Source of the DNA: Escherichia phage LHE287
Sequence record: PP761450.1
Strand: one strand, 5' to 3'
DNA length: 64,000 bases
The notes under the pieces were generated by a model. That model saw nothing but the letters and a program-made list of their open reading frames with translations, had not been told where the DNA came from and ran no database searches. The translations under genes and the position numbers were made by a program. Positions 33,463-58,918 of this stretch are shown here, one piece after another; position 1 is the stretch's first letter, and each line of letters opens with the position of its first letter.

Positions 33463-33968
33463 TGGCTATCAAACCCCGTATGTTATTTGCGCATATGCGC
33501 TCGGCTCATGCATACGCTCTGTCCAGCTATGCCCAGCGCCTGAAGGTTGGCTGTGTTATCGTTGACCCGCGTGTTGACCAACCCCTGTCTATCGGTTGGA
33601 ACGGGACTGCTCCTGGCGCTCCTAATGTCTGTGAGAAGGAAGTAGACGGTCAACTGGTATCGGTGGGTGTTATCCACGCCGAGGAGAATGCTCTGAGCAA
33701 ACTCCCCCAGCACACTGAAGACTGTTGTGGTCTGGTGATGTTTGTCACTCATAGTCCATGCCCAGAGTGCACCCGTCGTATTATCGACAGTGGCAAGATC
33801 GCTAAAGTGTTCTACGACCGACCATATCGTATCATAGACGGCATTATTGAAATGCTGGATGCTGGGATTGAAGTATATCGCATGGTCGATCAGATTGTTG
33901 TAGTCCAGCATTCTGTGAAGAACGGCGAACTGGTATCCACCCCTGTTTTAGTGAACCCTGACAAATAA
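33459..33968 (+). CDS. cd: dCMP deaminase (cytidine/deoxycytidylate deaminase family)
   Basis: Zinc-binding motifs HAEENAL and HSPCPEC. Confidence 0.8.
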   Translation: MMAIKPRMLFAHMRSAHAYALSSYAQRLKVGCVIVDPRVDQPLSIGWNGTAPGAPNVCEKEVDGQLVSVGVIHAEENALSKLPQHTEDCCGLVMFVTHSPCPECTRRIIDSGKIAKVFYDRPYRIIDGIIEMLDAGIEVYRMVDQIVVVQHSVKNGELVSTPVLVNPDK

Positions 33969-33977
33969 GGAATTATC

Positions 33978-34385
33978 ATGCGTTATGTAGATCGTATGCT
34001 CGGCAAAGACGAGCACGTTATTGCCTTCACCCGCCCGACTTGGTGGAGCGGTTTTTGGATTTACGTTCTGGTTATTTTAACGTTTATCCCAACATTTGGA
34101 TTCAGCTTGTTATTTCTGATACCAACAATTTTAAATGTATTGACAACTGAATTCGCTGTGACTAACAAGCGCGTCATCGTCAAACGTGGTTTCATCCGTC
34201 GTGATGCTGATGAGTTGCGCATTGGTAAGGTGGAGACAGTGAAGGTTGATCAGTCCATCACAGGCCGCATCTTGGGCTTCTCAACAATCAGCGTGATCGG
34301 TACGGGCGGCACCCACCTGCTGGCCAAGGGTTGTGCTGGTGGTAATGCGTTCCGCCAGAAGATCTACGATCACCTAGAAGACTGA
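33978..34385 (+). CDS. membrane protein with bacterial PH-like (YdbT-type) domain
   Basis: Two N-terminal TM helices followed by TNKRVIVKRGFIRRDADE. Confidence 0.4.
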   Translation: MRYVDRMLGKDEHVIAFTRPTWWSGFWIYVLVILTFIPTFGFSLLFLIPTILNVLTTEFAVTNKRVIVKRGFIRRDADELRIGKVETVKVDQSITGRILGFSTISVIGTGGTHLLAKGCAGGNAFRQKIYDHLED

Positions 34386-34387
34386 TC

Positions 34388-34600
34388 ATGATCATTTCAG
34401 GTTACACCATCGATCTTTATTGTGAATGCTCAGATTGCAAGGCATGCAGTTGGGCTTGGGAAGAGCATCACCCCAAGTGCGGGTTCAAACAATACACTGG
34501 TGAGACTTGGGGTGAGTGTGTCAAACAGGCGCGAGTAGACGGCTGGCAAATCGGGCGCGACAGGCATACCTGCTACGCCCCTGGCCACAAAAGAAGTTAA
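34388..34600 (+). CDS. small Cys/His-rich protein (70 aa)
   Basis: CECSDCKACSW...HPKC...HTCYAPGH. Confidence 0.4.
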   Translation: MIISGYTIDLYCECSDCKACSWAWEEHHPKCGFKQYTGETWGECVKQARVDGWQIGRDRHTCYAPGHKRS

Positions 34601-35211
34601 GGTAATAGAAGTCCATCATCCCGCTCCGTTGGGGCGGGTTTAATCTCCTTCCGCATCTGTTCCTTCAGCACCCTGACACGCTCAGCATGTCGGCGATCTT
34701 GCATCTCCATATCCCGTTTCTTTTTCGACTTCAGCTCAAACTGTTTACGAACATCCGGATCTTCACCTGGAACAAGATGCTCTTCGGTCCAGATAATGAA
34801 CTTCCAGTTCTTCTTGGCACACAGTTCGCGGGTGGCCTCCCACTTGGCAGAGTTGACCAACCAGGTTCGCATCGCATTGTTGAATGTCGACTCCTTCATG
34901 TTCGGAGTCTTCTTCGGCTGCTTGATCTGGTCTTTGGGCTTGATCTCAATGAGGGTGACCTGTAGTTCCTCTTGCCCTTCACGGCGCGTCCAGACCTTGA
35001 GGTCCATGAAGTAACGATGGGTGCGCCCGTCGACTGGGGAAATGTAAGGGATTACGGTCTCCTCACTAGACCACTTCACTATCGCGGAGTTCATATCACA
35101 GAACTTGAAAGCCACCAACTCCAGCGAAGAGCGGAAGATGATGTTATTCACATTCCCCTGATACTTCTTGGGATTAACTGGGGTGTACTTCCCCTGAAGA
35201 TAGTTGCTCAT
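34597..35211 (-). CDS. hypothetical protein, possible PD-(D/E)xK-type nuclease; lone minus-strand gene in a plus-strand block
   Basis: Candidate D...E-x-K arrangement (FMDLKV ... TLIEIKPK); Lys/Arg-rich C-terminus; function not secure. Confidence 0.3.
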   Translation of the reverse strand: MSNYLQGKYTPVNPKKYQGNVNNIIFRSSLELVAFKFCDMNSAIVKWSSEETVIPYISPVDGRTHRYFMDLKVWTRREGQEELQVTLIEIKPKDQIKQPKKTPNMKESTFNNAMRTWLVNSAKWEATRELCAKKNWKFIIWTEEHLVPGEDPDVRKQFELKSKKKRDMEMQDRRHAERVRVLKEQMRKEIKPAPTERDDGLLLP

Positions 35212-35261
35212 AATCTAGTCCTAAATAGCCATAACACTCTATCTATTTAAGGGCTGAGACC

Positions 35262-36230
35262 ATGGCCGACTTCAAGAAGACAATCGATAAGATCAAGGTT
35301 CTGAACACGAAGGGATTGTCCCAGGCTCAGAAGCAATTGTCTTATCCCCTGGACGTCACTGGGGGTAAGACCTTGGGACACTATGTCCTATTCAACATCA
35401 ACCGTATCTCCGGTTCATCTTATGGCAACACGGCTACTCAGACTATCGAGAACCCAATACAGAACCCTCTGGGGAATACTCCTGTGGTCTATGGGTCCAA
35501 GTCTGGTTCCATCACCAAATATGCATGGGCGCGCCACGTTCGTTCAAACGAGTCTATCGTACTTTGTATGCCCGAGTCCATTACAACCAACTATGGTGTT
35601 GGCTGGAACGGTAGCGAGCTGGGGTTGGCTGGTATGGGGGCACAGTTCCTTTCCCGCGCCGCCCAAGACATGACTCAGTTTAAACTGGGTGATGCGCTCA
35701 ACGTCGGGAAGGAGATGGGGCGATTCGCTGCCACCAAGGCTATCCAATCTGCGTCGGAGGCTATTCCATTCCTGCCGAGCATTAACGCCCATGACACCCT
35801 TGAGTTGTTCACAGGCACCATGACCAACCCATATGTGGAGATGATCTTCCAGGGTGTTCGCAACCGTGAGATTCCATTTACATTCAAATTCACGCCGCGA
35901 TCTCAGAAGGAAGCCAAGATGGTCCGTGAGATCATCCGCATGTTCAAGATGCACATGTACCCAGAGTACAAGTACAACAAGAATTCCAGCGCGTTTTACT
36001 TGCATCCTTCAACATTCGACATTACGTTCATGGTCAATGGGGAGCGTAACCAGTGGCTGCACCGCATCTCCACTTGTGTGCTTTCCAACATGTTCGTCAA
36101 CGAGACGCCGGACAGTTCATATGCGGTTCACAAAGATGATGGTATCGTGTCCACGCAGGTTGACATGACCTTCATCGAACTGGAGCCTCTGCATAAAGGG
36201 CGCTTTGAAACCGAAGGCGATAGCTTCTAA
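35262..36230 (+). CDS. putative baseplate or tail structural protein (322 aa)
   Basis: Begins a block of large ORFs divergent from the preceding gene; assignment by context only. Confidence 0.3.
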   Translation: MADFKKTIDKIKVLNTKGLSQAQKQLSYPLDVTGGKTLGHYVLFNINRISGSSYGNTATQTIENPIQNPLGNTPVVYGSKSGSITKYAWARHVRSNESIVLCMPESITTNYGVGWNGSELGLAGMGAQFLSRAAQDMTQFKLGDALNVGKEMGRFAATKAIQSASEAIPFLPSINAHDTLELFTGTMTNPYVEMIFQGVRNREIPFTFKFTPRSQKEAKMVREIIRMFKMHMYPEYKYNKNSSAFYLHPSTFDITFMVNGERNQWLHRISTCVLSNMFVNETPDSSYAVHKDDGIVSTQVDMTFIELEPLHKGRFETEGDSF

Positions 36231-36241
36231 GAGAGGATGCC

Positions 36242-36796
36242 ATGAAATATTTTGAGAAGTTTCCACTTGTTTGGCATCAATTGCAAGATGTCCAAGAGAA
36301 TGATCAGGTGCTGTTACAGAATTTAACGCGCCGGGTGATGATCTTACAGAAAATTAAGGACATCGAAGGGCTTCTCCTGCCGTATACGATCCAAGATGGG
36401 GAAACCCCAAGGTCTTTCGCAGAACGCGTTTACGGATCCTTCGAGTTGTTTTGGATACCTTGTCTGATAAACGGCATCATGGACATCAATAAGGACTGGC
36501 CGAAACCGGAACGCCGTATTGTTGAAGAACTGACTGCAGATTACGGCATCGATGGTATGTGGGATACAGCCTATTATGTCGACCAGTTCAACAATGTGAC
36601 CGACGCCCGTGCTATCAAATTTGCATATAACCTAGACCTGGATGAACCGTCCATAATTGCTAACTATGGTCTGACGGCAGTTTCATATCATGATGATGCA
36701 ATCAGTAAGAATGAAGCCAAACGGAACATCCAAGTACTCGACCCAGATTATGTGTCTTCGTTTGTCAATCAGCTGGAGCAGGAGTTGGCGAAATGA
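36242..36796 (+). CDS. hypothetical protein, probable structural (184 aa)
   Basis: ATG with GAGAGGATG context; stop overlaps the next start. Confidence 0.35.
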   Translation: MKYFEKFPLVWHQLQDVQENDQVLLQNLTRRVMILQKIKDIEGLLLPYTIQDGETPRSFAERVYGSFELFWIPCLINGIMDINKDWPKPERRIVEELTADYGIDGMWDTAYYVDQFNNVTDARAIKFAYNLDLDEPSIIANYGLTAVSYHDDAISKNEAKRNIQVLDPDYVSSFVNQLEQELAK

Positions 36797-38192: not shown

Positions 38193-40139
38193 ATGGCACA
38201 GGAAGCAACGAACAATGATGTTGTCAAAGTTCTAGACAAGATCAAGGCGGAGATGATGCAGCGCAAACAACTCCGCGCTCAGAATGAAACCAACAAACAG
38301 CTTGACCGGATGAACAAGAATCTGGCCAAGCTGGAATCTGCCACCAAACAGGGCACCAAGGCCGAGTCCAAGCCATTTGAAATCCGTATCCCGACAGTCA
38401 ATGAGATCGTCATGGGATTCGCTCGCATGTCTCCGATCTTCACCCGCGACTTCAGCGTATGGATGAAGGATACTGTCGATGTGGGTAACGAAGGCAATCG
38501 GGAACTGGAGAATATCGCAGGCAAGATTGACCGCCTCGGTGAGATCACCCGCATGCCAACAGATGACACGTCCCTAGAGTATCTTAACCTGATCTCAGAC
38601 CAGCTGAAGTCTGCCAATGATGACACCCTCAAGCGCATGGACGAGCAGAGTGTGTCTCTGGTCCGCGTGGGATCATTCTTGAACATGATCGACGGAGTGA
38701 TGATCGAGGTTCGTGACGATGTTGCTGAACTGAAAAAGAACTCCGATGCCACCCTTACTCGCTTGTCTAGCATTGAAAACAAGATTGGGCGCACGGGCGG
38801 TCATATCGTTGGAGTGCTGACACGCATCTTTGATGAAGACCAGAAGTGGCGTGAGAAGGACGAGATGCGCCGTGGGGAAACCGACAAAGAAACGGGTGGT
38901 CATCCTCAGGCGGGTTCTGTTATACCCAAAGACGATGACCAGAAAGACGATTCCTCCGGTATCGGGGCTGCTGTGGCGGCCATGCTTGGCCTGAATGCAC
39001 TGAAGGGCTTCTTGCTCAAGCCGTTCAAGATCATCGGTGGTGTTGTCGGGACTTTCCTCGGCATGTTCTCCAAGCTGGGAGAAGGTATCACCAAACTTCT
39101 GGGTCCATTTGGGAAGGTGTTCAAGTTCCTGAAAGTCGGCCCACTGGCTCTCCTGTCTATGATCTGGGACTTCGGTAAAGGCTTCATTGATGCGAAGGAG
39201 ATCCTGGGTAAAGGTGCTGTCACGATAGTTGACCGAGTACGGGCGGGGATATCAGAACTGGTTGGTGGATTTGGTGATCTATTTGACTGGGTGTCCAAGA
39301 TCTTTGGCTTTGATACCGAGGCGGGTGAAACCCTGCGCAAATACACCCTCATGATCACTGAGGCTCCCGCTCGTTGGCTGAATGGTATTATCGACTGGAT
39401 TAGCAACGACTTGTTTGCAGGGATCGGGAGAGACACGTCTCTTACGGATATCCCTGGCAAGTTAGCAGACAACCTACAGTCCGAGTTGATAAAGCTGGTA
39501 GACTGGATCACAGGGGGTATCAGTAGTGTGATCGACGAGGGCATGGGTGTGGCCAACAAGGTCATTGACGAAATCAAGAAGGGATTTGCCGAAAATGTGA
39601 AGAAACCTTTCTTCAACATGCTGAACACAATCACCAATGCGATGTTCGATATCGTTGACAAGTTCGTCAGCATCATCCCTGACGCTCTGGGTGGACAGGC
39701 TGCGAAGCAGAAGATGGATGAGGCTCGCCAGTCTATGCTGATTGACACTGATGAGAATCCGTCTCCTAATGTGACAGAGACCCAGCAGCCACAGACGCCA
39801 GCACAACCGAACATCGATCCACAAACGCTGACTCCAATACCTTCTGGTGCGTCTTCGGATGACAAGAATATGACTAATGACCGCACCTCTCAGCTGAAAG
39901 CTGCGTATGGTTCTATCGGGGGTGGTACTCTGGGTGGGGCCATGCCATCACAAGGGAGGGCGCTGTCTAATATTGAGCAAGTACAAGGCGGCTATTCACC
40001 GCCTCCGGCCAGCGTCGTGATGCCAGTACAGCAGAATGTGGATGCTTCTAAGAGGATCAACACGACCAATAACTTCAACAGCTCATATCTTGAGCCTGAG
40101 AACAAAACAGATAATTCCCGCATCCTGTGGGAATGGTAA
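38193..40139 (+). CDS. tail tape-measure-like protein (648 aa)
   Basis: N-terminal coiled coil; central Gly-rich hydrophobic stretch GIGAAVAAMLGLNALKGFLLKPFKIIGGVVGTFLGMF; GAGGTGA RBS. Confidence 0.35.
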   Translation: MAQEATNNDVVKVLDKIKAEMMQRKQLRAQNETNKQLDRMNKNLAKLESATKQGTKAESKPFEIRIPTVNEIVMGFARMSPIFTRDFSVWMKDTVDVGNEGNRELENIAGKIDRLGEITRMPTDDTSLEYLNLISDQLKSANDDTLKRMDEQSVSLVRVGSFLNMIDGVMIEVRDDVAELKKNSDATLTRLSSIENKIGRTGGHIVGVLTRIFDEDQKWREKDEMRRGETDKETGGHPQAGSVIPKDDDQKDDSSGIGAAVAAMLGLNALKGFLLKPFKIIGGVVGTFLGMFSKLGEGITKLLGPFGKVFKFLKVGPLALLSMIWDFGKGFIDAKEILGKGAVTIVDRVRAGISELVGGFGDLFDWVSKIFGFDTEAGETLRKYTLMITEAPARWLNGIIDWISNDLFAGIGRDTSLTDIPGKLADNLQSELIKLVDWITGGISSVIDEGMGVANKVIDEIKKGFAENVKKPFFNMLNTITNAMFDIVDKFVSIIPDALGGQAAKQKMDEARQSMLIDTDENPSPNVTETQQPQTPAQPNIDPQTLTPIPSGASSDDKNMTNDRTSQLKAAYGSIGGGTLGGAMPSQGRALSNIEQVQGGYSPPPASVVMPVQQNVDASKRINTTNNFNSSYLEPENKTDNSRILWEW

Positions 40140-54397: not shown

Positions 54398-55102
54398 CTA
54401 TTTCTTCTTATGCATACGACGTGCATCTTTCCACACAGACATCTGGCTCTGTTTCTGGAAGCGGGCAGTGCGCATGAAGAGAACGATCTCCCAGTACTGT
54501 GGCTCAATCTCGTAAAGCTGTGAACGGAACTGATCGGCGCGGTACAGCTTCACACAGTGATTGTACAGCGGATGGTTGGCGAAGCGCTTCAGGGCTTCCC
54601 AGGTGAGCTTCAGACGCGTCTTTGAGCGGTATGCCCGTTCGTTACGCAACTTGATCAGATCCTCAAACACCAACAGCCTGAGCTTCGGTGGCAGGTAGTG
54701 CATGTTGAGTCCCCAGAGGTATGTCACACCCTTCTCTCCAAAGGTGATACCATCACCCTTGACAAAGTTGAAGAAGAACACCAGAGGGTACATATCCCAG
54801 TAGGGTAGTTCATTCTTCGTCAGAGCATCATATTTGAAATAGAACATACGCCCGACTATATACCGCACACCTTGTACCGGACGTTTGTGATCAGCAAACG
54901 CCTGTTTCATATGGTTGGGACTCAGGTTGGCGTCCTTAGACACACGCTCCATGAACCACACATGCGAACGGCGGATGTTACGCTTCGCCTCTGGACCGAA
55001 GTGTTGACGGTACTTGCGGATGTAACGCTTGACCAGCTCGGGGGCGTCCATCTCGGCCGGAAACAGCAACGGATCTTCTTCGCCAGCTGCATTCTTTGCC
55101 AT
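54398..55102 (-). CDS. hypothetical protein (234 aa)
   Basis: ATG-initiated ORF; basic termini. Confidence 0.5.
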   Translation of the reverse strand: MAKNAAGEEDPLLFPAEMDAPELVKRYIRKYRQHFGPEAKRNIRRSHVWFMERVSKDANLSPNHMKQAFADHKRPVQGVRYIVGRMFYFKYDALTKNELPYWDMYPLVFFFNFVKGDGITFGEKGVTYLWGLNMHYLPPKLRLLVFEDLIKLRNERAYRSKTRLKLTWEALKRFANHPLYNHCVKLYRADQFRSQLYEIEPQYWEIVLFMRTARFQKQSQMSVWKDARRMHKKK

Positions 55103-55123
55103 TTGTCAACTCCTATAAATAAT

Positions 55124-55131
55124 AACAGTTA
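55124..55131 (+). promoter_or_regulatory. T4-type late promoter TATAAATA
   Basis: Exact TATAAATA about 25 nt upstream of the GTG start of 55156..56100, in a divergent intergenic region. Confidence 0.5.
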
Positions 55132-55155
55132 TTTTATTTAAGTGGAGTCCTCACC

Positions 55156-56100
55156 GTGGAAGACTATCGCAATTTTATCACACAGATATTACAGCGGGGC
55201 TTGTCGCGCAAGAACCGCTTCAGAGTGACCATCCCTCTACCACCAGGGATCTTTGACTCCAACGCCACTCTGGCTAATGACGGAAAGGCGTACAGAACCA
55301 ATTCATCTTTTGGTGACTTGTTTAAGCAGTCAGCCCGTATTGTAAACGCTTTCTTTGGAGGGACAAACCAGACGTCCCGTTCCCTTCAGATGATGTGTAT
55401 GGTTGCCTCATTGCCAGGGGTTGGTATTGACACCACTCCAATGACAAACAACGGTAATCACATCAAGATGCCGAACAACAAGTCCAACGTCGACCTCGAC
55501 TTGTCATTCTTATTAGCCAATGACTATTATGAGAAGTCTGTGATGGACAAGTGGAAGAGTCTGATCTTTGATCCACACACCACCAAAATGGGATATTACG
55601 AAGACTTCGTGACTGACATATGCATTGAACAGCTTGACACCGAAGATCAAGTGGTCCATCGCGTCTACATCGTCGAGGCTCACCCAATAAATTTCAGTTC
55701 TATTGAGCTGGATAAAGGCGCCACAGACCAGTTCAACCAGTACAACATTTCTTTCTCTTACAACAAAGTGCTTTCGGAGACAGAATATGAAACACGCAGC
55801 CTTTCCAGCGATTTTCTTCCTCTCGGCATTGCTGACGCTCTTACCAGTGGTGACTGGGAAACTGCGGCCTCAAAAGCTGGACAGCTTTATCGCAAGGTGA
55901 AAGAAGGGAACTTCACAGGAGAGGCTCTCCTGGCTTACAAACAGCTTGACCAACTTGTAAACAACCTGGCTGGGATAAGCATACAGGACTTCGAGCGCAT
56001 CTCGGTAGGTATCTCTCGTGACATCATGGGTAACGATAACCTGACGGCGGCGGAGAAGACAAGCCTGTTGGGAATATTGCAAGACGTGATGGGAAAATAA
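55156..56100 (+). CDS. hypothetical late protein, probable virion or morphogenesis component (314 aa)
   Basis: GTG start with GGAG RBS downstream of the late promoter. Confidence 0.45.
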   Translation: MEDYRNFITQILQRGLSRKNRFRVTIPLPPGIFDSNATLANDGKAYRTNSSFGDLFKQSARIVNAFFGGTNQTSRSLQMMCMVASLPGVGIDTTPMTNNGNHIKMPNNKSNVDLDLSFLLANDYYEKSVMDKWKSLIFDPHTTKMGYYEDFVTDICIEQLDTEDQVVHRVYIVEAHPINFSSIELDKGATDQFNQYNISFSYNKVLSETEYETRSLSSDFLPLGIADALTSGDWETAASKAGQLYRKVKEGNFTGEALLAYKQLDQLVNNLAGISIQDFERISVGISRDIMGNDNLTAAEKTSLLGILQDVMGK

Positions 56101-58867: not shown

Positions 58868-58918
58868 GTAAATAGCCCATAACGAAGTTTCATTGGTGTA
58901 TGGGCTATTTACGCCGGG

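What the first reader, a model, noticed from the sequence alone, without database searches (positions are those of the whole stretch)
34597..35211. Lone minus-strand gene inside a plus-strand block, possibly a nuclease
34597..35211 is the only minus-strand gene between 5629 and 40139. It is convergent with the small Cys-rich gene 34388..34600 and divergent from the structural block at 35262. It has a possible PD-(D/E)xK arrangement and a Lys/Arg-rich tail. This position and orientation are typical of a homing-endonuclease-like insertion or an independently regulated nuclease.
Basis: inference. Interest (0 to 1): 0.45.

Follow-up and report, generated by a model that had tools for sequence, protein, structure and literature searches.

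The report
T4-type head completion nuclease gene
The lone minus-strand gene is the ordinary, already annotated phage "head completion" nuclease (the counterpart of phage T4 gene 4) in the position it also holds in T4, not a selfish homing-endonuclease insertion.

Summary
The ORF at 34597..35211 (-), 204 aa, is real. It is the only minus-strand ORF with any family support between 5629 and 40139. It is the ortholog of phage T4 gp4, the head completion nuclease: PHROG 218 "head closure" E=8e-58, Pfam TnsA-like N-terminal endonuclease E=1e-17, and 38% identity to a T4-type gp4 (E=8e-30). The window comes from an Ackermannviridae (Aglimvirinae) coliphage. Phages ZQ1 and A221 encode an identical protein, annotated "head completion protein".

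The homing-endonuclease reading is wrong. The gene is a core gene found in 2544 phage records. Its divergent pairing with baseplate genes across about 50 bp, carrying facing late-promoter-like motifs, is shared with T4.

A real GIY-YIG homing endonuclease sits between gp4 and gp48 in 58 related phages, but not here. The Lys/Arg-rich tail (aa 149-204) is a lineage-specific long helix ending in a conserved LLLP, and it is under purifying selection. Its role is unknown. The finding is ordinary and already known.

The parts
34597..35211 (-). Complete CDS (204 aa plus stop) of the T4 gp4-type head completion nuclease
   Evidence: ORF. PHROG 218 'head closure' E=8.3e-58. Pfam PF08722 E=1.1e-17. The gp4 translations of ZQ1 and A221 are identical to it, and both are annotated 'head completion protein'. 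38% identity to the gp4 of T4-type phage PP01, E=8e-30.
34768..35211 (-). Catalytic core, aa 1-148: TnsA-like PD-(D/E)xK (restriction-endonuclease fold) domain
34939..35064 (-). Span holding the predicted active-site codons: E50 (35062-35064), D70 (35002-35004), E89 (34945-34947), K91 (34939-34941)
   Evidence: These residues are invariant in the 25-sequence and 63-sequence alignments. The codons were read directly from the sequence.
34600..34767 (-). Lineage-specific C-terminal extension, aa 149-204: long charged helix (aa 152-189) plus a flexible tail ending in the conserved LLLP
   Evidence: Absent from the T4-type and most other homologs. Present in Ackermannviridae-like sequences, which end in LLP. 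AF2 predicts helix 152-189; block-mean pLDDT is 80-93 over aa 151-190, and 59 then 48 for the last 14 residues. dN/dS is 0.026 against JA15. No Pfam match.
35212..35261 (.). 50-bp divergent intergenic spacer with two facing T4-late-promoter-like motifs: CTAAATAG on + (TAAATA at 35222-35227, 34 nt before the gp48 ATG) and TTAAATAG on - (TAAATA at 35244-35249, 32 nt before the gp4 ATG)
   Evidence: only 18 TAAATA sites on both strands in 64 kb. The 47-bp gene 53 / gene 4 spacer of T4-type phage PP01 has the same layout with two TATAAATA motifs. The spacer is retained in JA15, S8 and SFP10. Promoter function is inferred, not shown.
34620..34638 (+). Terminator-like hairpin on the + strand (8-bp stem followed by TTTAATCT), 20 nt after the stop of 34388..34600 and inside the 3' coding end of gp4
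   Evidence: Energy is -14.6 kcal/mol but z=-1.5 only. Identical in four Aglimvirinae phages and absent in Kuttervirus S8. Weak evidence.
34388..34600 (+). Convergent neighbour: small Cys-rich protein of unknown function, whose stop overlaps the gp4 stop in TTAA
   Evidence: PHROG 926 E=1e-25, function unknown. Sequence.
35262..36796 (+). Divergent neighbours: gp48-like baseplate tail tube cap (35262..36230) and gp53-like baseplate wedge subunit (36242..36796)
   Evidence: PHROG 230 E=7e-114 and PHROG 232 E=1.2e-58. Pfam T4_tail_cap and Phage_gp53.

Best explanation
The gene encodes the Ackermannviridae ortholog of phage T4 gp4, the head completion nuclease.

**Shown here.**
- It has a small TnsA-like PD-(D/E)xK nuclease domain with an intact active site (E50, D70, E89, K91).
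- It is universally conserved in T4-related and Vi01-like phages.
- It sits in a conserved position, divergent from the baseplate genes gp48/gp53.
- It carries a lineage-specific C-terminal helix of 56 aa.

**Taken from the literature on T4.** Gp4 is a non-specific DNase. Its catalytic activity is needed for morphogenesis at or after DNA packaging, and it is suggested to process the packaged DNA end so that heads and tails can join.

**Inferred.**
- The gene is transcribed late from a gp55-type promoter (TTAAATAG) in the 50-bp spacer. That promoter faces the late promoter of gp48.
- Being on the opposite strand simply reflects an old gene order at the boundary between an early/middle block (rIIA ... 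dCMP deaminase) and a late baseplate block.
- The charged C-terminal helix and LLLP tail help it bind DNA or dock at the portal/neck.
For: **Family assignment**
- PHROG 218 'head closure' E=8.3e-58.
- Pfam PF08722, 64.7 bits against a cut-off of 26.5.
- BLASTP against the gp4 of T4-type phage PP01: 38% identity, E=8e-30.
- 2544 phage records hold a homolog, mostly annotated head completion, head closure or head completion nuclease.
- UniRef names the homologs 'Head completion nuclease'.
- gp4 is listed among the core morphogenesis genes of T4 relatives (PMC2993671).

**Active site and fold**
- E50, D70, E89 and K91 are invariant in 63 homologs.
- AF2 model: mean pLDDT 89.4.

**Synteny**
- gp4 lies divergent from gp48/gp53 here and in ZQ1, A221, JA15, S8 and SFP10.
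- It lies divergent from gene 53 in the T4-type phage PP01.

**Promoter layout**
- Two facing late-type motifs occur here and in PP01.
- Vi01-like phages encode a late sigma factor and a late-promoter accessory factor (PMC3220722).

**Function in T4**
- Benler et al. 2020, as cited and summarised in PMC7824862 and PMC11895373.

**C-terminal tail**
- It is under purifying selection in frame: 1 non-synonymous against 9 synonymous changes relative to JA15.
Against: - No experiment exists on this protein or on any Ackermannviridae ortholog that I could find.
- The primary paper on T4 gp4 was not available to read, so the biochemical claim rests on secondary summaries.
- The exact DNA substrate of gp4 is unknown even in T4.
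- The gp4 homolog does not appear in the virion proteome tables of the Kuttervirus phage Sajous1. Where and when it acts therefore remains inferred.
- The minus-strand promoter motif is not exact in Kuttervirus: TAATTA instead of TAAATA.
- No function is established for the C-terminal extension.
Confidence: 0.88

Rival explanations
1. It is a free-standing homing endonuclease, or another selfish nuclease recently inserted between an early block and the baseplate block.
Against: The gene is present in all listed relatives at the same place and in 2544 phage records across Straboviridae, Ackermannviridae, cyanophages and jumbo phages. Its pairing with a baseplate gene also occurs in a T4-type phage. 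It is a listed core gene. The sporadic element at this locus is a different gene: a SegE/SegB-like GIY-YIG ORF of 244-245 aa, found in 58 records and absent here, where the spacer is only 50 bp.
Confidence: 0.02
2. It is a TnsA-type transposition protein, or a remnant of a Tn7-like element.
For: The best Pfam family and the best structural match are TnsA.
Against: Only the N-terminal catalytic domain is shared. No TnsA C-terminal domain is detected; a single helix takes its place. No TnsB/TnsC-like genes lie nearby: the neighbours are baseplate genes, a bPH membrane protein and dCMP deaminase. Identity to TnsA is 15-17%. The family is phage-wide.
Confidence: 0.01
3. It is an active nuclease of the gp4 family, but in this lineage its main role is something other than head completion. 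Examples would be host or competitor DNA degradation, or processing of replication or packaging intermediates. The C-terminal extension would adapt it to that role.
For: The extension is lineage-specific and conserved. The gp4 homolog was not listed in a Kuttervirus virion proteome. Published summaries say gp4 DNase activity is non-specific.
Against: The core is orthologous to T4 gp4 and the gene keeps its link to baseplate genes and late-type promoter motifs. The partner gene gp2 (DNA end protector) is also retained, with the same promoter layout. These phages encode other dedicated nucleases such as DexA.
Confidence: 0.07
4. It is a catalytically dead structural or adaptor protein that only keeps the nuclease fold.
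For: It has historically been annotated as 'head completion protein' or 'head closure'.
Against: All canonical catalytic residues are invariant across 63 diverse homologs. Such conservation is not expected of a dead enzyme. Published summaries report that nuclease activity is required in T4.
Confidence: 0.02

Closest known systems
Phage T4 gp4 head completion nuclease (PHROG 218; UniRef 'Head completion nuclease')
   Same: Shares the catalytic core: 38% identity over 144 aa, E=8e-30. Shares the invariant E/D/ExK residues. Shares the divergent placement next to baseplate wedge genes, with two facing late-promoter motifs in a spacer of about 50 bp.
   Different: This protein has 204 aa against 150. 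It carries an extra C-terminal charged helix (aa 152-189) and an LLLP tail, found only in Ackermannviridae-like phages. In T4-type phages gene 2 follows gene 4 directly. Here the gp2 homolog lies about 20 kb away at 54398..55102, and gp48 sits between gp4 and gp53.
Tn7 TnsA (PDB 1f1z, 1t0f), N-terminal endonuclease domain, Pfam PF08722
   Different: Identity is 15-17%. There is no TnsA C-terminal domain, no TnsB/C partners and no transposon context. It is a phage morphogenesis gene.
Seg-like GIY-YIG free-standing homing endonucleases (F-LimII of Limestonevirus; the PhiSH19/S8 homing endonuclease; T4 SegB/SegE)
   Same: They occupy this very locus in 58 relatives. There the homing endonuclease is inserted exactly at the gp4 start codon and downstream of the same spacer.
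   Different: They are an unrelated protein family, GIY-YIG plus NUMOD3. They are sporadically distributed and absent from this window. The flagged gene is their neighbour and probable target, not a member of the family.

Membership tests
T4 gp4 head completion nuclease family | Significant sequence homology to T4-type gp4 over the whole ~145-aa core | tested here: met
   PHROG 218 E=8.3e-58, covering aa 3-148. BLASTP against PP01 gp4 E=8e-30, 38% identity. tblastn hits to Tequatrovirus gene 4 at about 1e-16.
T4 gp4 head completion nuclease family | Intact PD-(D/E)xK catalytic residues | tested here: met
   E50, D70, E89 and K91 are invariant in 25 and in 63 homologs, including the T4-type sequence.
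T4 gp4 head completion nuclease family | Conserved genomic context in a T4-related morphogenesis gene set | tested here: met
   Divergent from gp48/gp53 here and from gene 53 in PP01. Same locus in Aglimvirinae and Kuttervirus relatives.
T4 gp4 head completion nuclease family | DNase activity that is required for head-tail joining | not testable with these tools
   Known for T4 gp4 only through summaries of Benler et al. 2020. Needs biochemistry and genetics on this phage.
Tn7 TnsA transposase subunit | N-terminal TnsA-like endonuclease domain | tested here: met
Tn7 TnsA transposase subunit | TnsA C-terminal domain and TnsB/TnsC partner genes in an element with transposon ends | tested here: not met
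   No second Pfam domain. The C-terminus is a single helix. The neighbours are phage baseplate, dCMP deaminase, bPH and unknown small genes.
Free-standing homing endonuclease | Sporadic presence or absence among close relatives at an otherwise collinear locus | tested here: not met
   gp4 is present in all listed related records and in 2544 phage records. By contrast, the adjacent GIY-YIG gene is found in only 58 records.
Free-standing homing endonuclease | Membership of a recognised homing endonuclease family (GIY-YIG, HNH, LAGLIDADG, etc.) | tested here: not met
   The only Pfam hit is the TnsA-like N domain. The neighbouring gene in JA15 and S8 is the one with GIY-YIG/SegE/NUMOD3 domains.

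The most novel reading that the evidence does not exclude
The 56-aa C-terminal extension is specific to Ackermannviridae-like phages. It consists of a long charged helix and a flexible tail ending in the conserved LLLP. It could be a docking or tethering module that binds the portal/neck or the terminal DNA segment. That would localise or time an otherwise non-specific DNase at the packaged genome end. It would be a regulatory add-on that T4 gp4 lacks. Unrelated basic C-terminal tails occur in a few other homologs (P0042, P0048/PhiW-14, P0099). This hints at repeated acquisition of such an appendage.
Probability: 0.3. Interest if true: 0.3.

Novelty: already known. Interest (0 to 1): 0.1.

Why it matters
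It matters little beyond correct annotation. The gene is a known core morphogenesis nuclease of T4-related phages, and GenBank relatives with an identical protein already annotate it as such.

Three modest points of value remain:
1. The 'lone opposite-strand gene' signature is here a conserved gene order shared with T4-type phages, not a sign of mobility.
2. The gp4 start is a recurrent landing site for a Seg-like homing endonuclease in relatives. The 5' 170 nt of gp4 travel with that endonuclease, which is a clean natural example of co-conversion around a conserved catalytic motif.
3. The Ackermannviridae-specific C-terminal helix is an uncharacterised appendage on an enzyme whose substrate is still unknown even in T4.

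Tried and rejected
- **NCBIfam.** No match.
- **Pfam on the C-terminal tail alone.** Only noise, E of at least 0.1.
- **Primary paper on T4 gp4 (Benler et al. 2020).** Not held. I used summaries in two open papers instead.
- **First structure job.** It was rebuilt without that sequence.
- **Sigma-70 promoter scan of 33900-35500.** Nothing found.
- **Plus-strand hairpin at 34620-34638.** It is terminator-like, but its energy is not unusual against shuffles (z=-1.5, with 10 of 200 shuffles as good). It is not conserved in Kuttervirus. I list it only as a weak feature.
- **Minus-strand TAAATA motif upstream of gp4.** Not exactly conserved in Kuttervirus, which has TAATTA. The gp4 promoter assignment therefore stays an inference.
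- **Other minus-strand ORFs.** Ten of at least 90 aa between 5629 and 34597 were tested against PHROGs and none matched.
- **Homing-endonuclease and TnsA-transposon readings.** Both rejected on distribution and context.

Full report
**Observation**

The ORF at 34597..35211 on the minus strand starts with ATG and encodes 204 aa. Ten other minus-strand ORFs of at least 90 aa lie between 5629 and 34597. None has any PHROG match, and several visibly overlap longer plus-strand ORFs. In the closest annotated relative, A221, the 20 kb upstream of the match carry only one other minus-strand CDS, a 117-nt hypothetical. The 'lone minus-strand gene' description is therefore correct.

The gene converges on the small Cys-rich gene 34388..34600. 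The two stop codons overlap in the palindrome TTAA. It diverges from 35262..36230 across a 50-bp spacer.

**Origin of the window**

The region 33900-36300 is 99.0% identical to Escherichia phage A221 and 98.4% identical to vB_EcoM-ZQ1, both Ackermannviridae, Aglimvirinae. It is 87-93% identical to Shigella phage Ag3, a Yersinia phage and the Dickeya Limestonevirus phages. It is about 77% identical to many Kuttervirus (Vi01-like) Salmonella phages.

**What the gene is**

- The protein matches PHROG 218 'head closure' (E=8.3e-58, aa 3-148) and Pfam PF08722 'TnsA-like endonuclease N terminal' (64.7 bits, cut-off 26.5).
- tblastn finds homologs in 2544 phage records. These include Tequatrovirus gene 4, cyanophage gp4, and Aeromonas, Vibrio, Acinetobacter and jumbo phages, nearly all annotated head completion, head closure or head completion nuclease.
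- Direct comparison with the gp4 of T4-type phage PP01 gives 38% identity over 144 aa, E=8e-30.
- The ZQ1 and A221 proteins are identical to the window protein and are annotated 'head completion protein'.
- gp4 is listed among the core morphogenesis genes of all T4 relatives (PMC2993671).

**Nuclease fold**

In alignments of 25 and 63 homologs, E50, D70, E89 and K91 are invariant, as are E31, N120 and K123. An AlphaFold2 model built on the 63-sequence alignment has mean pLDDT 89.4. D70 sits at the start of one core strand and E89-x-K91 at the end of the next, which is the canonical PD-(D/E)xK layout.

**Function, from the literature**

Benler et al. 2020 (Virology 543:7) reported that T4 gp4 is a non-specific DNase whose activity is required for morphogenesis. 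I could not read that paper and rely on its summaries in PMC7824862 and PMC11895373. Those summaries also describe the protein as a TnsA-like REase-fold nuclease characteristic of T4-like phages. They pair it functionally with the gp2 DNA end protector and suggest that it cleaves packaged DNA to allow head-tail joining. That mechanism is inferred for the present protein by orthology.

**Why it is on the opposite strand**

In the T4-type phage PP01, gene 4 is likewise divergent from the baseplate wedge gene 53. The 47-bp spacer there holds two facing TATAAATA late promoter motifs. TATAAATA as the T4 late promoter consensus is established knowledge.

The window's 50-bp spacer has the same layout. 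CTAAATAG on the plus strand lies 34 nt before the gp48 ATG. TTAAATAG on the minus strand lies 32 nt before the gp4 ATG. TAAATA occurs only 18 times on both strands of the 64-kb window. Vi01-like phages encode a late sigma factor and a late-promoter accessory factor (PMC3220722).

The genes upstream on the plus strand are rIIA/B, topoisomerase, DexA, a phosphatase and dCMP deaminase. The genes downstream are baseplate genes. gp4 therefore marks a boundary between replication/nucleotide-metabolism genes (early or middle, by analogy with T4) and late baseplate genes, in a gene order shared with T4-type phages.

There is a caveat. In Kuttervirus the minus-strand motif reads TAATTA, and no transcript data exist. 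Late expression is an inference.

**The homing-endonuclease idea**

gp4 itself is universally present, so it fails the sporadic-distribution test. The locus, however, does host a real homing endonuclease in relatives. In Dickeya phage JA15 (F-LimII) and Salmonella phage S8, an ORF of 244-245 aa lies between gp48 and gp4 on the gp4 strand. It carries GIY-YIG, SegE-like and NUMOD3 domains. The two copies are 73% identical to each other.

Its stop codon overlaps the gp4 ATG, and the 50-bp spacer is retained upstream of it. It occurs in 58 phage records, always next to the head completion gene. PhiSH19 has it and Vi01 does not. The window lacks it.

Endonuclease-carrying gp4 alleles are mosaic. 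The first ~170 nt are only 63-80% identical to those of endonuclease-free close relatives, while the rest is 94-100% identical. The two endonuclease-linked alleles, which come from different subfamilies, resemble each other most in nt 121-170 (84%). They share SSETCV where endonuclease-free alleles have SSEETV, around catalytic E50. This looks like a co-conversion tract and suggests a homing site in the 5' part of gp4 (inference).

**The tail**

Residues 149-204 are absent from T4-type and most other homologs but present throughout Ackermannviridae-like sequences, where the C-terminus ends in LLP. AF2 predicts one long helix (aa 152-189) followed by a low-confidence tail. The segment has 16 K/R and 13 D/E, with pI 9.5. 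It matches no Pfam family.

It is under purifying selection in frame: 1 non-synonymous against 9 synonymous differences relative to JA15, dN/dS 0.026. A few unrelated homologs carry other basic C-terminal tails. A role in DNA binding or portal/neck docking is plausible but untested.

In a Kuttervirus virion proteome (Sajous1), the gene numbers adjacent to the baseplate cap gene (gp57/gp58) are not listed. That is weak evidence against a stable virion role.

**Verdict**

The nuclease guess is right and the homing-endonuclease interpretation is wrong. The gene is the known, already annotated T4 gp4-type head completion nuclease in a conserved context. Interest is low.

Noticed in passing
window 35040-35211 (5' third of gp4); L002:2199-3550 (JA15); L003:2767-4121 (S8): 58 related phages carry a Seg-like GIY-YIG homing endonuclease inserted exactly at the gp4 start codon. 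Endonuclease-linked gp4 alleles are mosaic: the first ~170 nt are 63-80% identical to endonuclease-free close relatives and the rest is 94-100% identical. They share SSETCV instead of SSEETV next to catalytic E50. This suggests a co-conversion tract and a homing site inside gp4.
   Followed up: partly
window 54398-56100: There is a second lone minus-strand late gene with the same architecture. The gp2-like DNA end protector (54398..55102, -, PHROG 429 E=1.6e-67) is divergent from a tail tube / gp54-like gene (55156..56100, +). The 53-bp spacer carries TATAAATA on + and TTAAATA on -, facing each other. In T4-type phages genes 2 and 4 are adjacent. Here they are about 20 kb apart, but each is paired with a baseplate or tail gene.
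   Followed up: partly
window 34597-34640: The stop codons of the convergent genes 34388..34600 (+) and gp4 (-) overlap in TTAA. A terminator-like hairpin for the + strand (34620-34638) lies inside the last codons of gp4. It is identical in four Aglimvirinae phages, absent in Kuttervirus, and not statistically unusual.
   Followed up: yes
window 2861, 2950, 35222 (+), 58869 (+) and 58911 (-): Several TAAATA sites share an extended motif, roughly TAAATA(G/C)CC(C)CATA. The pair at 58869/58911 forms a perfect 13-bp inverted repeat (TAAATAGCCCATA ... TATGGGCTATTTA) between two minus-strand ORFs. This may be a longer late-promoter consensus or a combined promoter and hairpin element.
   Followed up: no
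window 33978-34600; L001:6616-7054; L005:20260-20698: The ZQ1 and A221 records annotate only a 228-nt CDS here. The window holds an intact 135-aa bPH 'membrane-flanked domain' ORF (33978..34385, PHROG 3707 E=9e-75) and a 70-aa Cys-rich ORF (34388..34600, PHROG 926 E=1e-25). The latter is unannotated in those two records. The public annotation is probably incomplete.
   Followed up: no
window 38193-40139: A 648-aa ORF downstream of the baseplate hub genes matches PHROG 3799 (unknown function, E=0) and, weakly, a tape measure family (E=4e-5). Relatives annotate it as hypothetical or as a putative tape measure protein.
   Followed up: no
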